This document shows, in pieces, positions 36,001-42,000 of a DNA stretch of 64,000 nucleotides (position 1 is the first letter of the stretch; each line of letters starts with the position of its first letter). The stretch lies in assembly GCF_988243305.1 (NCBI RefSeq), contig NZ_OZ547136.1. One strand, given 5' to 3'. Made by a program: the position numbers.

Positions 36001-39000
36001 CCGGTTATACCGCTAATTTAGGCGTCATCAGCGCACTTGCCGACCATAACGCCGTGGTGTTACTGGATGCCGACAGCCACGCCAGTATTTATGACGCCTG
36101 TTCTCTCGGTGGCGCGGAAATTATTCGTTTCCGCCATAACGATGCTAAAGATCTGGAACGGCGCATGGTTCGCCTCGGTGAACGGGCGAAAGAGGCGATT
36201 ATCATCGTTGAGGGCATCTACAGCATGCTCGGTGACGTTGCGCCGCTGGCGGAAATTGTTGATATCAAACGTCGTCTCGGTGGTTATTTGATTGTCGATG
36301 AAGCGCATTCGTTTGGCGTGTTAGGCGCAACGGGGCGCGGACTGGCTGAAGCCGTTGGCGTTGAAGATGATGTGGATATTATCGTTGGTACTTTCAGTAA
36401 AAGTCTGGCCTCGATTGGCGGTTTTGCTGTCGGTTCGGAAGCGATGGAAGTGTTGCGCTACGGCAGCCGCCCGTATATTTTTACCGCCTCTCCTTCTCCG
36501 TCCTGCATTGCGACCGTGCGCTCGTCGTTAAGAACCATTGCCTCACAACCAGAGCTGCGGCAAAAGCTGATGGATAACGCCAACCATCTGTATGACGGTC
36601 TGCAAAAACTGGGTTACGAGTTAAGTTCACATATTAGCCCGGTAGTGCCAGTAATAATCGGTTCGAAAGAGGAAGGTTTACGCATCTGGCGCGAGCTTAT
36701 TTCGCTGGGCGTTTATGTGAATCTTATCCTGCCACCTGCCGCGCCTGCAGGCATCACGCTGCTGCGCTGTAGCGTAAACGCTGCCCACAGTCGTGAGCAA
36801 ATTGATGTCATCATTCAAGCGTTCGCTACTCTGAAGCAGTAATGTGAGCCCGCTGGGCGCTGCGCCACGGCGGGTTTAATGTTGTCTGTCATACCAATAC
36901 ACCAGGCTCAACGCCACCAGCACAAACGCTACCGGTAAACCGAGCGCGGTAACAGGTGCGCTCAACGCAAATAGCAACCCCAGATTGACCATGATTTGAT
37001 AGCTGATCCAGGTGAGTAAGCCCACGATGACGCCTACAGCGAGACGGCTACCCATCCCTGGCGAGCGCGGGGCGCTAAAGGTAAACGGCACAGCCAGCAA
37101 AATCATCGCCAGGGTCAAGATGGGTTGTCCCAGTTTTTCCCACAGTGCAAGGCGGTATTCGCTGCTGGGTTGCCCGGTTTCCTGCAAATAATGGATGTAA
37201 TGATTAAGTTGACGGACAGAAAAAGTATTTCCCGGCATCGATAACTCTTCAAGATTCATACTGGTGAAGGCCGATTGCCAGGCAAGATTATCTGATGTTT
37301 CCAGCGTTTCTTTGCCATTCAACCATTTTTTATGATTCACACCATGCAGGATCCACGTTTTGTCGTCTTCAATGGAGGCACTGCGTGCAAAAATGTAGGA
37401 TTCGAGCGAGAGATCGTCGCGATAATGAAATATCTCCACGCCCACAGGCTGGCCCTGCTCGTTCAGCGATTTCACCGTCACAAATTCATTACCGCGCCTG
37501 GCCCAAAGCATATTGCCGGTAATGTCATCGTCCTCCCCCAACGCGGTGGCAGTCGATTTGATTTGCAGCGCCTGTTGCTGCAATGGCGACGCCACCCACT
37601 CATCTATCGCGCCTAACGAAACAGTCCACAATATCCCGGCAACCAGCGCCACCAGTGCAATACGGAAGATAGAAAACCCAGTGCTGCGAATGGCGGTAAG
37701 CTCACTGTTTTTCGATAACTGCCCCAGGCCAACAATCCCTCCCAATAAGGCGATAAACGGCGAAAGTTCGACCAGTGTACGCGGTAAGGTCATCAGCACC
37801 ACCAGCACCGCCTGAGTCCAGCGATAACCGCCCGGGCTGACATCATCCAGTTCGTTAATCAGGTTGAAGGTGGTAAAAAGCGGCAGCAATAGCCCTGCGG
37901 CGGCGGCAAAACCGAGAAAGAGATGACGGATTAAATAGCGACTGAAAACATTCATCGGGAAAATTTCTGCAGCAAAGAGAAGTCGCGTGCGACCAGCATC
38001 AGCAGGCCCATTAGCATGAGTCCGGGTACTAACCACAAACCAGGAATGAGGGGAATCGCGCCGTTAGCCACCAGCGTACGGCAGACGTCGCCGCCATAAA
38101 AAATGGCAACAAACAGCAACGTCAGTGGCAATAACGTTGAAAATCGCCCTTGCCGCGGTTTTACCCGACTTAATGAAATGGCCAGCAGCGCCATCAACAA
38201 CGCTGTCAGGCCACGGCTTTGTCGCCATTGCAGTTCGGCATGATCGGCAGGAAAGGCGGAGCGCGCCAGCTCCGTGACCGATTTTGCTTTGCGTTTGACG
38301 TTAGGGCTTTGATCCAGCGGATTCAGATGTAATTGCAGATTACGGTAGATCTGTTCGTTGTCGTCACGCCCCTGATGATCGAGAAGATAGGCGGTCCCGT
38401 TATGCAACATAACGGTCGGTTTCTCAGGTGATGGGTCAACCACATCAACCGAACGGGCGCGGAAAATGCGGGTTCGATTGGCAGTAGAAGTATAAATCAG
38501 CGCGTCAGTCAGGCGATTATTATCCTGATCAACCGTCTGCGAAAGGATCATTCGTCCGTTATCGTTAGTGTTAAATTTCTTTGCCCGCAACTGGCGAACA
38601 TCCAGCTCCGACTGTGACTGTTGCTCCAGTTGATAAATCTGCGCATAAGCCCACGGACGACCATACATCGACAGAAGGGTGACAAAAATACTTAGCGGTA
38701 TCGCCAGATAAAGAACGGCTTTGTACAAGCGTCCCGGACTGCCCCCCGCCGCAGAAATAGCGGTAATTTCCGAGTCGGTATACATCTGCCCTAGCGTCAC
38801 GCCAACTGACACATACAGTCCAACAGGTAACAACATCTCCAGTGCAATCAGCACCTTGTAGAAAACAATATCCAGCACAACATCAAGAGCTAATGTCCCA
38901 TTTGCCGCTTCGGTCAGATAACGCTGTGCGGAGTAGCTGGCGAAAATAAAGATCAGAAAACCGACGATAATCAGCACCAGACGGCGCGTACCACGCATGA

Positions 39001-42000
39001 TGTAGTGTTCAACCAGCTTCATCTCACTAACGCCCTCAATCCTTTGAATTTTTTATTCATTGATCAGTTTCTGCGCCAGCGCAATGACATGTTCTACCTC
39101 TTCCGGCGTCAGGCTGCCGTCCTTTGCCCACTGAATTTGCCCGGTTTTATTCAGCACCAGAATGGTTGAACTCTGCTCCTGCAAGTGCCAGGCAACGCGT
39201 CCCTGTCCATTGCCGTCAATAACGAATTGCGCCCATGGATAGCGGCGTTTATTTTTTTCGATTTTGCCAACGACAAAATAGCCGGTACCAAAGATGGCAT
39301 CATCAGTGTTCACAATGGTGGTAGGCTGAAAACGATCCTGCGGAAAGTTTGCCGCTTCAACCGCTTTAATTAACAGTGAGTTCTTTTTCTTCGCCGACTT
39401 ACGCCCGGCGATATACTGAATAATGCGGACTTTTCCCGCCAATTGTGTGCTGTTCCACTTTTGGTAGTGAATTTCGTCGTCGCTATTCAGAAGCAGCTCA
39501 CCACCTTCCTGGATATAAACAGAGGTAACCGTTTTGCCAGTGACGAAATTGTGCGCCTGCACACCCGGGGCTAAGAGCATGATAATCAGCGCAATAATCA
39601 AACGAGATGACATCATTGCTCCGGTTATAGCGGAAAACGCGAAATCAGCAGTTCTAAGCGCTGACGAATATCGCTATCCAGCGCCATCGGTGCATCATAC
39701 GACTGGCGGTTTTCCATATCATCCGCCACCATGTCGTCGTGTTTATCCCCCATCAGGCCATTAATGGCGGCGAGGAAGCGGGAAATCTGTAACGCCTCTT
39801 TATTTTCAGGATCAAGCGATCTTAGGGTGTCGTAATAAGAAACCTGCTGGCTGATGATTTTTCGCACATCATGAAATTCCCTGCCAGTTAGTCGCGGTTT
39901 GGCAATTATCTCTTTCAGGGTATGCATTTGCTTTTGCCGATAGGCAATAAAACCGCTTACGCTTTCTAACTGGCTATGGCGTAATGAATAGTTCACCAAC
40001 GACCAGACCGGAGAGCTTAAATAAACCCGTAACAGGTTGCCGTAATACGACACAATATTTTTCTTACCGTTACGAAAGCCGTCCTGAAAACGCCCCAAAA
40101 AAACGGTCGTTTTGCCGAATAAAAATCCGGCCTGATGCTTTTTTAAATACAGCCGTTGCGCAAAACGCAGGTGCTTGTAGCGCGCTCGCATGTATTTAAA
40201 TTGTTTGCGCTCATCAGCAGTCAGCTCATCGCCTTTGGCCTGTTTGCATATTAAACGCAGTAACTCCTGGCGATTGACGCCATTGAGCCAGAATTGCAGG
40301 CATAACGCGTAATTATCATGGATGATTTCGGTGGTACAACTTAGTGCGATAGTCGGCGGCAAACTGACCTGTGCATCAACGACATCATCTTCTTCAATCG
40401 CAACAAATAGACGCTCGCTCGCCTCAAGCGGGAAATATTTTCTCATCATCAGGATTTCTCTCCGGCTGCGTTATAAAGCAAGGAATGGCGCTGAAAAAAT
40501 GCCTTTAAGGTTGGAATTAACGAGAGCGCCACGTCCAGACATTGCCCACCGAAGTAAGCAAACGCTGCTCCCAGCACACCAAACAGATGACAGAACATGA
40601 ACAGCAATACGATGTAGCCGATTGAGGCGATGGTTTGCGCCACGAGAAAAGCGCGCTGTTTTCCCGCCATCAATAGCAATGACTCCTGAGGGAAGCCCAG
40701 CATCGAGATCACAATTGCGCCCAGCATCACCTGAATCAGGTCATACGCTTCGAGATACTTAACGCCAAACACCAGCGAAATGAGCGGCTTGCCGACAATC
40801 AACACCGCGAGCGCCACCAGAATACCGATTCCGCCCGCCAGTAAACCGGACTTCACGCCTAACAACCACGGTCTGGTGGTACGCGGATCTAAACGCATCA
40901 CCTCTGGGTAAAAACTTTTGCCCAGTAAACCCGCTGGCGTTCCGGCGGCGTCGAAGAATGTCATGGCGATTTTAAATAACCCGGCGGCAGCGGGTCCTAA
41001 CACGATCCCCACCAACACTGTGCTGCACGAATTACGCGCCGACCAGATGGAATGGGCAATGTTGGTTGACCAGACAAAACTCCACGCGCCTTTGATGTGT
41101 CGGGCAGACTCAAACAGATTCAATTTGAACGCGTTATGGATATTTCTGCGGCGTAATTCACGTGCGGCAAACCACCAGTACATGGTGCCGCCAACAAGAT
41201 TCGAGGCGTACCAGGCAATAACAAAACCCGCAAAACCAAAGTCAAAATACCAGGCAACGACGCTCCCCGCTGCGCGCAGAAAAGGTTTCGTCGCCTGCTG
41301 TACAGCAATTAAGTCGAAGCGATCTACCGCACGCAGAATGCCGGTCGGCGTGGAGGAAGCCATTGAAGGAATGAGCGTGCAATACAGCGCTGCCAGCCAA
41401 AAGCTTTGGTCATCCAGACCTAATGAATGGGAAAGAAAAGGGAGTAAGGCAATGCCGCCGACAATCGCCACCGCGCCGCTGACGATATCCAGCGAGAAGG
41501 AAAATGAGACGACATTGCGGAATTGCTGCGGATTATTGTTGGTTAATGCTGGTGTTCCGTACTGAACCACCAGCTGCCATGTCTGAAACTTAATAAAATC
41601 GCTGATCGACTTGGCGTACGATTGCACAATCACCAGTACGCCAAACATGGCGGGTGTCATCCCTTTACCGGCACACGAGAGCGCCAACAGACCCAGCAAA
41701 GCGCTCACGACATTACTGGAACCTAACCAAGCGCTATTGCGAATAATGGTGCGAAACGCGCCATCTGCAAACCAATGTTTGATGTTAAACCCCGCCAATT
41801 CAGCCTGACCTTATCGTTGATAGTAAAAAGTATCCCGCCAGCTTTAAGTTAAACTTCGGCGGTCAGAAACGATGGCAACCAGAGAAACCGCCTTCTGTGC
41901 CTGTTCCAGCACTGCGCTGTAGGGCGCTCTGGAATCAATCTCAAGAATTTTTGTGCCGTTATAGCCAATCGTCGACATGACACCGATTTTGTCCTGCAGC

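What the first reader, a model, noticed from the sequence alone, without database searches (positions are those of the whole stretch)
36876..41798. LptF/LptG-like permease pair without an ABC ATPase, operonic with a periplasmic protein and a MOP flippase: candidate export route for the cluster product
Seen in sequence: two adjacent paralogous LptF/LptG-family permeases whose start and stop overlap by 4 nt, preceded in the same minus-strand operon by a signal-peptide protein, a 274-aa unknown protein and the YghQ flippase-like protein. No gene with ABC signature motifs is present. The operon is convergent on the lipid-biosynthesis operon across a 33-bp gap containing a GC hairpin. Established knowledge: LptFG normally works with the LptB ATPase to extract lipopolysaccharide; orphan LptFG paralogs have not been assigned a function. 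Inference: this is a dedicated transenvelope transport system for a non-LPS lipid, possibly borrowing LptB or using a different energy source.
Basis: partly seen in the sequence, partly recalled or inferred. Interest (0 to 1): 0.7.

Follow-up and report, generated by a model that had tools for sequence, protein, structure and literature searches.

The report
Second LptFG pair for sphingolipid export

Summary
The window is the E. coli glc–yghO…yghT–pitB region. It carries an LptF-like gene (37952-39022, −) and an LptG-like gene (36876-37955, −) with an ATGA overlap. Upstream on the same strand are a signal-peptide protein, a 274-aa protein and the MOP-family YghQ. Across a 33-bp hairpin lies the convergent aasR-cerR-acpR-spt operon. 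No ABC ATPase is encoded.

The "lipid operon" is the bacterial ceramide pathway; the E. coli BL21 enzymes have been characterised (PMC9386255). A 2026 preprint (10.64898/2026.04.12.717747) shows that Caulobacter LptF2/LptG2 are needed when anionic sphingolipid is made, form a complex and pull down LptB. Its Figure 2B depicts the E. coli UTI89 locus.

My tests agree:
- Both proteins pass the LptF/LptG equivalog cut-offs and keep the coupling-helix glutamate.
- In 43 of 48 species the pair lies within 10 kb of spt. The other five loci are truncated.
- About 75% of E. coli genomes carry the whole cluster. K-12 lost it to IS5.

Corrections:
- The periplasmic protein has a Cys-less thioredoxin fold (YtfJ family), not an LptA/LptC jellyroll.
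- The 274-aa protein is CHAD-like.
- The operon probably extends to yghR-yghS.

Not shown: any function in E. coli.

The parts
36876..37955 (-). lptG2: LptG-family permease, 359 aa; second copy besides canonical lptG
   Evidence: TIGR04408 scores 304.7 bits against a cut-off of 240. Full-length match to solved LptG chains, E = 5e-42. 28% identical to K-12 LptG. The coupling-helix Glu is kept in 48/49 orthologues.
37952..39022 (-). lptF2: LptF-family permease, 356 aa; its stop overlaps the lptG2 start by 4 nt
   Evidence: TIGR04407 scores 319.8 bits against a cut-off of 230. Matches solved LptF chains, E = 6e-32. 29% identical to K-12 LptF. The Glu aligned to LptF E84 is kept in 49/49. The ATGA overlap is seen.
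39053..39616 (-). YtfJ-family periplasmic protein, 187 aa, with a signal peptide and no cysteine
   Evidence: TIGR01626 scores 215.8 bits. AF2 model pLDDT 85.7. Foldseek PDB hits are all thioredoxin/TlpA/peroxiredoxin folds, E = 1e-7, TM 0.55-0.69. The sequence has the N-terminal pattern MMSSR-LIIALIIMLLAPGVQA|HN.
39625..40449 (-). 274-aa soluble all-alpha protein, CHAD-like fold, function unknown
40449..41798 (-). yghQ: MOP/Wzx-like (Polysacc_synt) multi-pass membrane protein, candidate inner-membrane flippase
   Evidence: Pfam PF01943, E = 2.7e-8. NF007773 MOP flippase, weak. At least 7 hydrophobic windows. Same InterPro family (IPR002797) as Caulobacter CC_1166, the proposed flippase.
41844..42602 (-). 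yghR: P-loop NTPase/kinase-like protein, not an ABC ATPase
   Evidence: Walker A GCDGTGKS and no ABC signature. Weak dTMP-kinase-like match. 44% identical to YghS.
42634..43347 (-). yghS: P-loop NTPase/kinase-like paralogue; probable first gene of the minus-strand operon
   Evidence: The gap to yghR is 31 nt.
43521..44213 (+). yghT: third P-loop paralogue, divergent from yghS
   Evidence: It travels with yghS-yghR in most orthologous loci.
36843..36875 (.). 33-bp convergent intergenic spacer with a GC-rich hairpin; probable bidirectional terminator
   Evidence: -30.1 kcal/mol, z = -4.5 on the + strand; -16.2 kcal/mol on the - strand.
   Evidence: PGAP annotation. The E. coli BL21 enzyme has been characterised (PMC9386255).
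35422..35670 (+). acpR: dedicated acyl carrier protein
34476..35390 (+). cerR/epi: SDR-type ceramide reductase
31241..32383 (-). yghO: bacterial ceramide synthase (bCerS/aca)

Best explanation
The locus is the enterobacterial version of the proteobacterial sphingolipid (ceramide) gene cluster. LptF2 and LptG2 are the membrane subunits of a second Lpt-type extractor dedicated to that lipid.

Proposed route:
1. AasR, AcpR, Spt, YghO (bCerS) and CerR make (dihydro)ceramide at the inner membrane. The activities of E. coli BL21 AasR, AcpR and Spt were assayed; the YghO and CerR roles rest on Caulobacter mutants.
2. Cytoplasmic genes of the minus-strand operon may modify the head group. These are the YghR/S/T P-loop kinase-like proteins and the CHAD-like 274-aa protein. 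This step is speculative.
3. YghQ, a MOP/Wzx-type transporter, flips the lipid to the periplasmic leaflet. This is inferred. In Pseudomonas-type and some metagenomic clusters an MsbA-like ABC exporter takes the place of the MOP gene.
4. An LptF2-LptG2 heterodimer, made in 1:1 ratio through the conserved ATGA overlap, docks through its conserved coupling helices on the cell's single LptB dimer. It extracts the lipid from the inner membrane and hands it to the shared Lpt bridge (LptC/A/D/E) or to an unknown acceptor. This is inferred for E. coli. Complex formation with LptB and sphingolipid-dependent essentiality were shown for the Caulobacter homologues.

The YtfJ-like periplasmic protein is an accessory factor of unknown role. 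It is not an LptA/LptC homologue.
For: Identity of the pair:
- NCBIfam equivalog scores are above the cut-offs for LptF and LptG respectively.
- Both align over their full length to solved LptF/LptG chains, periplasmic domain included.
- The coupling-helix Glu is kept in 49/49 (LptF2) and 48/49 (LptG2) orthologues. The basic residues aligned to LptF R33 and K317 and LptG K62 and R136 are also kept.

Second copy, no own motor:
- Canonical lptFG is present in 5425/5426 E. coli genomes.
- No ABC ATPase is encoded in the window.

Linkage to sphingolipid synthesis:
- In 48 species found with the LptF2 profile, spt/aasR/cerR/acpR lie within 10 kb in 43. The other 5 loci are cut on the side where spt is expected. 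This holds across at least five different gene orders.
- In E. coli, 4051 genomes carry at least 80% of the whole 13-kb cluster, against 4090 with at least 80% of the transport part.
- The nearest LptG2 relatives outside this clade (37-45% identity) also sit beside spt-ACP-epimerase-AMP-ligase genes, with Caulobacter-like head-group genes: DAGK_cat, CDP-OH_P_transf, NTP_transf and, in two of the three loci, Tam41.

Literature:
- E. coli BL21 AasR/AcpR/Spt make 3-oxo-sphinganine (PMC9386255).
- Caulobacter lptF2/lptG2 can be deleted only when spt or cpgB is absent. LptF2 and LptG2 co-purify with each other and with LptB. The E. coli UTI89 locus is shown as homologous (10.64898/2026.04.12.717747).
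- CC_1166, proposed as a flippase, is in the same Polysacc_synt family as YghQ.
- An MsbA-like exporter replaces the MOP gene in Pseudomonas L026, and an ABC exporter is also present in L056.
Against: - There is no experiment in E. coli. I found no report of a sphingolipid detected in E. coli membranes, and the product's head group is unknown.
- I could not obtain the Caulobacter LptF2/G2 sequences. Common descent of the E. coli and Caulobacter second copies, as opposed to independent duplications, is untested. My NJ tree is unresolved at depth.
- LptC2 is absent here.
- The cavity residues that differ from E. coli LptG (K34, K40, K41) are in the common state of the wider LptG family, so they say nothing about the substrate.
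- A quarter of E. coli genomes lack an intact locus, and K-12 lives without it. The system is therefore dispensable and could be silent under laboratory conditions.
Confidence: 0.68

Rival explanations
1. The locus is cryptic or decaying in E. coli. The genes are intact but normally silent, and no sphingolipid is exported under natural conditions.
For: About 25% of complete E. coli genomes lack an intact cluster, through several independent deletion types. K-12 lost aasR through the 274-aa gene at an IS5. My literature searches found no report of E. coli sphingolipids.
Against: All 13 ORFs are intact in 4051 genomes at 95-99% identity. They are conserved at protein level across about 20 genera despite rearrangements. 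The BL21 enzymes are active. The translational-coupling overlap is conserved.
Confidence: 0.15
2. LptF2G2 is an alternative LPS exporter, for example for a modified lipid A or under stress, and lies next to the spt genes by coincidence.
For: Both proteins pass the LptF/LptG 'equivalog' cut-offs, and PGAP names them LPS export permeases. Several basic cavity residues are retained.
Against: Linkage to spt is seen in 43 of 43 loci with enough flank and in more distant relatives. The pair is lost together with the spt operon in E. coli. Canonical lptFG is universal. In Caulobacter the paralogues are essential only when sphingolipid is made.
Confidence: 0.07
3. The pair is energised not by LptB but by the neighbouring P-loop proteins YghR/S/T, or works without ATP.
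For: Three P-loop NTPase genes are encoded in or next to the operon in most enterobacterial loci.
Against: YghR/S/T have no ABC signature and resemble nucleotide-kinase folds only weakly. They were not found within 10 kb in the Sodalis and Rosenbergiella arrangements. LptF2 and LptG2 keep the ABC coupling helix with its invariant Glu. Caulobacter LptF2/G2 bind LptB.
Confidence: 0.05

Closest known systems
Caulobacter crescentus LptF2/LptG2 (CCNA_01214/CCNA_01213 = CC_1156/CC_1155), sphingolipid-locus paralogues of LptFG (Uchendu, Isom & Klein, bioRxiv 10.64898/2026.04.12.717747; proposed earlier in PMC11324152)
   Same: A second LptF+LptG pair alongside the canonical one. It is encoded inside the spt/acpR/aasR/cerR/bCerS locus with no lptB copy in the locus. 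A Polysacc_synt-family putative flippase lies in the same locus. The preprint's Fig. 2B shows the E. coli UTI89 locus as homologous.
   Different: E. coli has no LptC2 and none of the CpgABC-type head-group genes (DAG-kinase-like CpgB, Tam41-like, NTP transferases). It has instead a YtfJ-family periplasmic protein, a CHAD-like protein and three P-loop kinase-like paralogues. No genetics or biochemistry exists for the E. coli proteins. Orthology to the Caulobacter pair was not tested here.
Canonical LptB2FGC lipopolysaccharide extractor of E. coli and other Gram-negatives (e.g. PDB 6MHU, 6MIT, 6S8H)
   Same: Same family and architecture: six TM segments with a periplasmic domain between TM3 and TM4. 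The coupling helix with its conserved Glu is kept. The gene order is F then G.
   Different: Only 28-29% identical to the host's own LptF/LptG. It is dispensable and strain-variable. It lies in the ceramide gene cluster and is unlinked to lptCAB.
MOP (Wzx/MurJ-type) flippases and MsbA, as inner-membrane lipid flippases acting before Lpt extraction
   Same: YghQ belongs to Pfam Polysacc_synt. Related clusters carry an MsbA-like ABC exporter in place of a MOP gene. This matches a flip-then-extract logic like MsbA followed by LptB2FG.
   Different: No substrate is known for YghQ. The match to characterised MOP flippases is weak (33.5 bits against a cut-off of 273 for NF007773).

Membership tests
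LptF/LptG permease family (YjgP/YjgQ, PF03739; TIGR04407 LptF, TIGR04408 LptG) | Sequence score above the curated family cut-off, with each protein specific for F or G | tested here: met
   LptF2 scores 319.8 bits (cut-off 230) on TIGR04407 and only 68.9 on the LptG model. LptG2 scores 304.7 bits (cut-off 240) on TIGR04408 and only 85.4 on the LptF model.
LptF/LptG permease family (YjgP/YjgQ, PF03739; TIGR04407 LptF, TIGR04408 LptG) | Full-length architecture: 3 TM, a periplasmic (beta-jellyroll) domain, then 3 TM | tested here: inconclusive
   End-to-end alignments to solved LptF/LptG chains include the periplasmic segment. Hydrophobic windows fall at both ends around a hydrophilic insert of about 190 aa. 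The jellyroll fold itself was not modelled.
LptF/LptG permease family (YjgP/YjgQ, PF03739; TIGR04407 LptF, TIGR04408 LptG) | Coupling helix with the conserved Glu (E. coli LptF E84, LptG E88; numbering recalled from memory, not confirmed) that docks on LptB | tested here: met
   Glu is kept in 49/49 LptF2 and 48/49 LptG2 sequences. The motifs SEITAI and SELTAI align with SEITVM and SELVVM.
LptF/LptG permease family (YjgP/YjgQ, PF03739; TIGR04407 LptF, TIGR04408 LptG) | Physical complex with an LptB dimer, and LPS as substrate | not testable with these tools
   This needs pull-downs or multimer modelling and transport assays. Genomic context argues for a sphingolipid rather than LPS.
Sphingolipid-locus LptF2/LptG2 (Uchendu et al. 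2026) | A second pair in addition to canonical lptFG | tested here: met
   Canonical lptFG is found in 5425/5426 E. coli genomes. The extra pair is found in about 75%.
Sphingolipid-locus LptF2/LptG2 (Uchendu et al. 2026) | Encoded within the spt/acpR/aasR/cerR/bCerS locus and co-inherited with it | tested here: met
   Window and L001 annotation. 43 of 48 species loci have the spt operon within 10 kb, and the other 5 are truncated. Within E. coli the counts are 4051 against 4090 genomes.
Sphingolipid-locus LptF2/LptG2 (Uchendu et al. 2026) | No dedicated lptB in the locus | tested here: met
   No ORF in the 64-kb window has both a Walker A motif and an ABC signature.
Sphingolipid-locus LptF2/LptG2 (Uchendu et al. 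2026) | Common descent with Caulobacter CCNA_01213/01214 | not tested
   The Caulobacter sequences could not be fetched. Relatives at 37-45% identity lie in loci with Caulobacter-like head-group genes. The NJ tree is unresolved.
Sphingolipid-locus LptF2/LptG2 (Uchendu et al. 2026) | Essential only when anionic sphingolipid is made; co-purifies with LptB | not testable with these tools
   These are experimental criteria.
LptA/LptC (OstA-like beta-jellyroll) periplasmic Lpt components, considered for the 187-aa protein | Beta-jellyroll fold, or a PF03968/PF06835 match | tested here: not met
   The AF2 model (pLDDT 85.7) has alternating beta-alpha elements. All top PDB matches are thioredoxin/TlpA/peroxiredoxin folds. 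NCBIfam assigns the YtfJ family.
YtfJ family (TIGR01626 / PF09695) | Score above the curated cut-off over the full length | tested here: met
   215.8 bits against a cut-off of 151.1, covering residues 2-185 on profile positions 1-183 of 184.
ABC-transporter ATPase, considered for YghR/YghS/YghT | Walker A plus the LSGGQ signature, and a full ABC_tran domain match | tested here: not met
   There is no signature motif. The ABC_tran match covers only the P-loop, model positions 12-37.
MOP flippase superfamily (Polysacc_synt PF01943), for YghQ | Pfam domain match and a multi-pass membrane topology | tested here: met
   PF01943 E = 2.7e-8 and PF13440 E = 1.2e-7. At least 7 hydrophobic windows. The score is far below the NCBIfam equivalog cut-off, so the subfamily and substrate are open.
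CHAD domain (PF05235), for the 274-aa protein | CHAD fold (paired helical bundles) and a family HMM match | tested here: inconclusive

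The most novel reading that the evidence does not exclude
Enterobacterial-type sphingolipid loci may encode a head-group and transport module unlike the Caulobacter one. It comprises three P-loop kinase-like paralogues (YghR/S/T), a CHAD-like cytoplasmic protein, the MOP flippase YghQ and a Cys-less thioredoxin-fold periplasmic YtfJ protein. 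Under this reading, three quarters of E. coli strains could place a so far undescribed, probably phosphorylated, sphingolipid in their outer membrane. The YtfJ-like protein would act as a periplasmic partner of LptF2G2, taking the place of LptC2.
Probability: 0.15. Interest if true: 0.7.

Novelty: already known. Interest (0 to 1): 0.3.

Why it matters
E. coli is usually described as lacking sphingolipids, largely because K-12 lost this locus to an IS5-associated deletion. About 75% of sequenced strains, including BL21, ST131, UTI89-type UPEC, ETEC and O104:H4, keep an intact ceramide pathway together with a second LptFG pair. If the locus is expressed, the Lpt machine in these strains would handle two different lipids. 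That bears on outer-membrane biology, on host recognition of bacterial sphingolipids, and on LptB2FG-directed antibiotics. The concept has been published for Caulobacter and the E. coli locus has been pointed out. What remains open is the E. coli product, its head group, and the roles of the YtfJ-like, CHAD-like and YghR/S/T proteins.

Tried and rejected
1. Substrate inference from cavity residues. Relative to E. coli LptG, LptG2 has N/D/T at K34, D/E at K40, D at K41 and a non-basic residue at R133 (LPS contacts taken from PMC6744409). This looked like a charge inversion. However, the acidic 'ELDDVG' motif is the common state across the LptG family, including representatives not linked to spt. 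I rejected it as non-diagnostic.
2. Beta-jellyroll test of the 187-aa protein. Negative: it has a thioredoxin-like fold.
3. Sequence-level identification of the 274-aa protein. Pfam, NCBIfam, PADLOC and PDB searches (single sequence and profile) all found nothing. Only fold comparison gave a lead.
4. Search for the 274-aa and YtfJ-like proteins in distant spt-linked loci (L026, L043, L046, L052-L058). None were found. These proteins are specific to the enterobacterial type of locus.
5. YghR/S/T as homologues of the Caulobacter ceramide kinase CpgB. Rejected: CpgB is DAG-kinase-like, not a P-loop protein.
6. Phylogeny. A distance (NJ) tree puts E. coli LptG2 with the spt-linked representatives and away from K-12 LptG. 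The deep branches are star-like and there is no bootstrap. I used it only as weak support.
Direct orthology is therefore untested.
8. Anti-phage defence reading of the P-loop genes. Only P-loop-level PADLOC hits were found.

Full report
**Where we are.** The window matches E. coli chromosomes. The best hit, NZ_CP148331, is 100% identical. The local gene order is:
- glcDEFGBA and glcC;
- yghO;
- [fatty acyl-AMP ligase, NAD(P) oxidoreductase, ACP, spt] on the + strand;
- [lptG, lptF, YtfJ-family, hypothetical, 'LPS biosynthesis protein' (YghQ), yghR, yghS] on the − strand;
- yghT, pitB, gss and the hyb operon.

**Observation.** All the described ORFs exist at the stated coordinates.
- The LptG-like gene starts at the ATG at 37955, giving 359 aa. 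PGAP and the orthologous loci use this start. The longer GTG ORF listed mechanically is not used.
- Its ATG overlaps the TGA of the LptF-like gene as ATGA.
- spt and the LptG-like gene converge across 33 bp (36843-36875). The spacer holds a strong hairpin: −30.1 kcal/mol, z = −4.5.
- Gaps along the minus-strand genes are 31, 45, −1, 8, 30 and −4 nt.
- No ORF anywhere in the window has both a Walker A motif and an ABC signature. YghR, YghS and YghT have only a P-loop and a weak dTMP-kinase-like profile.

**What the proteins are.**
- *The permease pair.* The two permeases are not generic paralogues of each other. One passes the curated LptF equivalog model (319.8 bits, cut-off 230). The other passes the LptG model (304.7 bits, cut-off 240).
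  - Both align end to end with solved LptF and LptG chains.
  - They are 29% and 28% identical to the host's own LptF and LptG.
  - They resemble each other only in the coupling helix.
  - Across 49 sequences the coupling-helix Glu is kept in 49/49 (LptF2) and 48/49 (LptG2).
- *The 187-aa protein.* It is a YtfJ-family member (215.8 bits) with a signal peptide and no cysteine. Its model (pLDDT 85.7) matches thioredoxin/TlpA/peroxiredoxin folds and not a beta-jellyroll.
  - Its nearest AFDB relatives outside the Enterobacterales are annotated as CHAD proteins of Sphingomonas, Acetobacteraceae, Zymomonas and Pseudomonas veronii.
- *YghQ.* It is a Polysacc_synt (MOP/Wzx-like) membrane protein.

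**What the neighbouring operon is.** The 'FAAL/AOS lipid operon' is the bacterial ceramide pathway.
- AasR, AcpR and Spt of E. coli BL21(DE3) were characterised biochemically.
- The SDR gene and yghO are listed as the orthologues of the reductase and the N-acyltransferase (bCerS) that Caulobacter needs for dihydroceramide synthesis (PMC9386255).

An LptF2 profile scan of one genome per species returned 48 loci. They come from about 20 enterobacterial genera, two Pseudomonas species and one distant gammaproteobacterial MAG.
- tblastn with all 13 cluster proteins shows spt, acpR, cerR and aasR within 10 kb of lptF2-lptG2 in 43 loci. The other five are truncated on the side where the spt operon lies in their nearest relatives.
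- At least five gene orders occur.
  - lptF2-lptG2 is always an adjacent same-strand unit.
  - ytfJ-like/274-aa/yghQ is a separate module. It is on the opposite strand in Sodalis and Rosenbergiella and missing in Pseudomonas.
  - yghRST is a third module.
- Within E. coli, 4090 of 5426 complete genomes hold at least 80% of the transport part, and 4051 hold at least 80% of the whole 13-kb cluster. The two operons are therefore kept or lost together.
- K-12 MG1655 has IS5 between yghO and a truncated yghQ. Everything from aasR to the 274-aa gene is gone.
- Canonical lptFG is in 5425 of 5426 genomes.
- An exhaustive search with LptG2 gives further support.
  - Full-length representatives at 45%, 44% and 37% identity all sit beside Aminotran_1_2/PP-binding/Epimerase/AMP-binding genes. 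They also have DAGK_cat, CDP-OH_P_transf and NTP_transf genes, and two of the three loci have a Tam41 gene.
  - That is the head-group gene repertoire described for Caulobacter.
  - Of the representatives checked at 34-36% identity, P0132 and P0142 are not linked to spt, and P0142 lies next to an LptB-like ABC_tran gene. P0137 (36%) sits beside a DAGK_cat lipid kinase on a contig too short to show spt.

**Literature.**
- PMC11324152 proposed in 2024 that Caulobacter CC_1168/1156/1155 (LptC2/F2/G2) and the Polysacc_synt-family CC_1166 move phosphosphingolipids to the outer membrane.
- The April 2026 preprint 10.64898/2026.04.12.717747 reports four things:
  - lptF2, lptG2 and lptC2 can be deleted only in Δspt or ΔcpgB backgrounds.
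  - LptF2 and LptG2 co-purify with each other and with the single LptB.
  - lptF2/G2 occur in many alpha- and gammaproteobacterial sphingolipid loci.
  - Its Figure 2B shows the E. coli UTI89 operons.

**Mechanism proposed for E. coli.**
1. Ceramide is made by AasR/AcpR/Spt/YghO/CerR. The enzymology is partly shown.
2. The head group may be modified by cytoplasmic YghR/S/T and the CHAD-like protein. This is speculative.
3. YghQ flips the lipid. This is inferred.
   - It is supported by the family identity with CC_1166.
   - It is also supported by an MsbA-like ABC exporter in Pseudomonas, which lacks the MOP gene, and an ABC exporter in L056.
4. LptF2G2 extracts the lipid while docked on LptB. 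This is inferred from the conserved coupling helices and the Caulobacter data.
5. Onward transfer uses either the shared Lpt bridge or unknown factors.

The YtfJ-like protein remains unassigned.

**Caveats.**
- Nothing has been tested in E. coli. I found no report of E. coli sphingolipids.
- The apparent loss of lipid-A-phosphate contacts in LptG2 is not informative, because the same residues are common throughout the LptG family.
- Orthology with the Caulobacter pair could not be tested directly.

**Verdict.** The interest that remains lies in the enterobacteria-specific accessory genes and the unknown product.

Noticed in passing
L050 (NC_000913.3 3129043-3132408); corresponds to window about 32400-40730: In K-12 MG1655 an IS5 (insH9) sits between yghO and a 5'-truncated yghQ. 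The genes aasR, cerR, acpR, spt, lptG2, lptF2, the ytfJ-like gene and the 274-aa gene are all missing. This explains why the system was overlooked in the model strain.
   Followed up: yes
window 39625-40449 (-): The 274-aa 'unknown' protein is confidently predicted to have a CHAD-like fold. Its nearest AFDB relatives outside the Enterobacterales are CHAD-annotated proteins from Sphingomonas, Acetobacter, Gluconobacter, Komagataeibacter, Zymomonas and Pseudomonas veronii, genera known to carry spt. It may be an unrecognised sphingolipid-associated protein family. The genomic context of those relatives was not checked.
   Followed up: partly
window 41844-44213 (yghR, yghS on -, yghT on +): Three paralogous P-loop kinase-like proteins (34-44% identical to each other) travel with the cluster in most enterobacterial loci. 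They are unrelated to the DAG-kinase-like ceramide kinase CpgB of Caulobacter. They are candidate head-group kinases with no known substrate.
   Followed up: partly
L026 (Pseudomonas marginalis) 287-14892; also L043: The Pseudomonas version keeps spt-acpR-cerR-aasR, yghO and lptF2-lptG2 but lacks the ytfJ-like, 274-aa and yghQ genes. It has instead an MsbA-like ABC exporter (677 aa), a YegS/DAG-kinase-like lipid kinase, an OlsC/LpxO-like hydroxylase and two YghRST-like genes.
   Followed up: partly
L052, L056, L058 (metagenome contigs): LptG2 relatives at 37-45% identity lie in spt loci. These loci carry CDP-alcohol phosphatidyltransferase, metallophosphatase and NTP-transferase genes. Two of the three also have DAGK_cat and two have Tam41. 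This is a head-group toolkit like that of Caulobacter and different from E. coli.
   Followed up: partly
window 36876-39022; L001 14077-16223: PGAP names these second copies 'LPS export ABC transporter permease LptF/LptG' because they exceed the TIGR04407/TIGR04408 equivalog cut-offs. The name probably over-states their substrate.
   Followed up: partly
P0001, P0002, P0006, P0011-P0013 (E. coli assemblies): A few assemblies carry 493-553-aa gene calls that fuse the YtfJ-like and LptF2 reading frames (PF09695 + PF03739). Each is a single-member cluster, so they are probably sequencing or gene-calling artefacts or rare stop-codon mutations.
   Followed up: no
L024 (record titled Martelella alba BGMRC 2031): A genome labelled as an alphaproteobacterium carries an enterobacterial-type locus. 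It has the Serratia-like gene order and 61-78% protein identity to E. coli. The assembly is probably mislabelled or contaminated.
   Followed up: no
window 40449-41798; K-12 b2983: A published cluster of SNVs in yghQ of chlorhexidine-adapted K-12 (PMC8170033) lies in this IS5-truncated remnant gene, directly next to the IS5 copy. Read-mapping artefacts should be considered.
   Followed up: no
window 11385 region (-): The only other Walker A ORF in the window is a 533-aa protein. It was not examined and is unrelated to the cluster.
   Followed up: no
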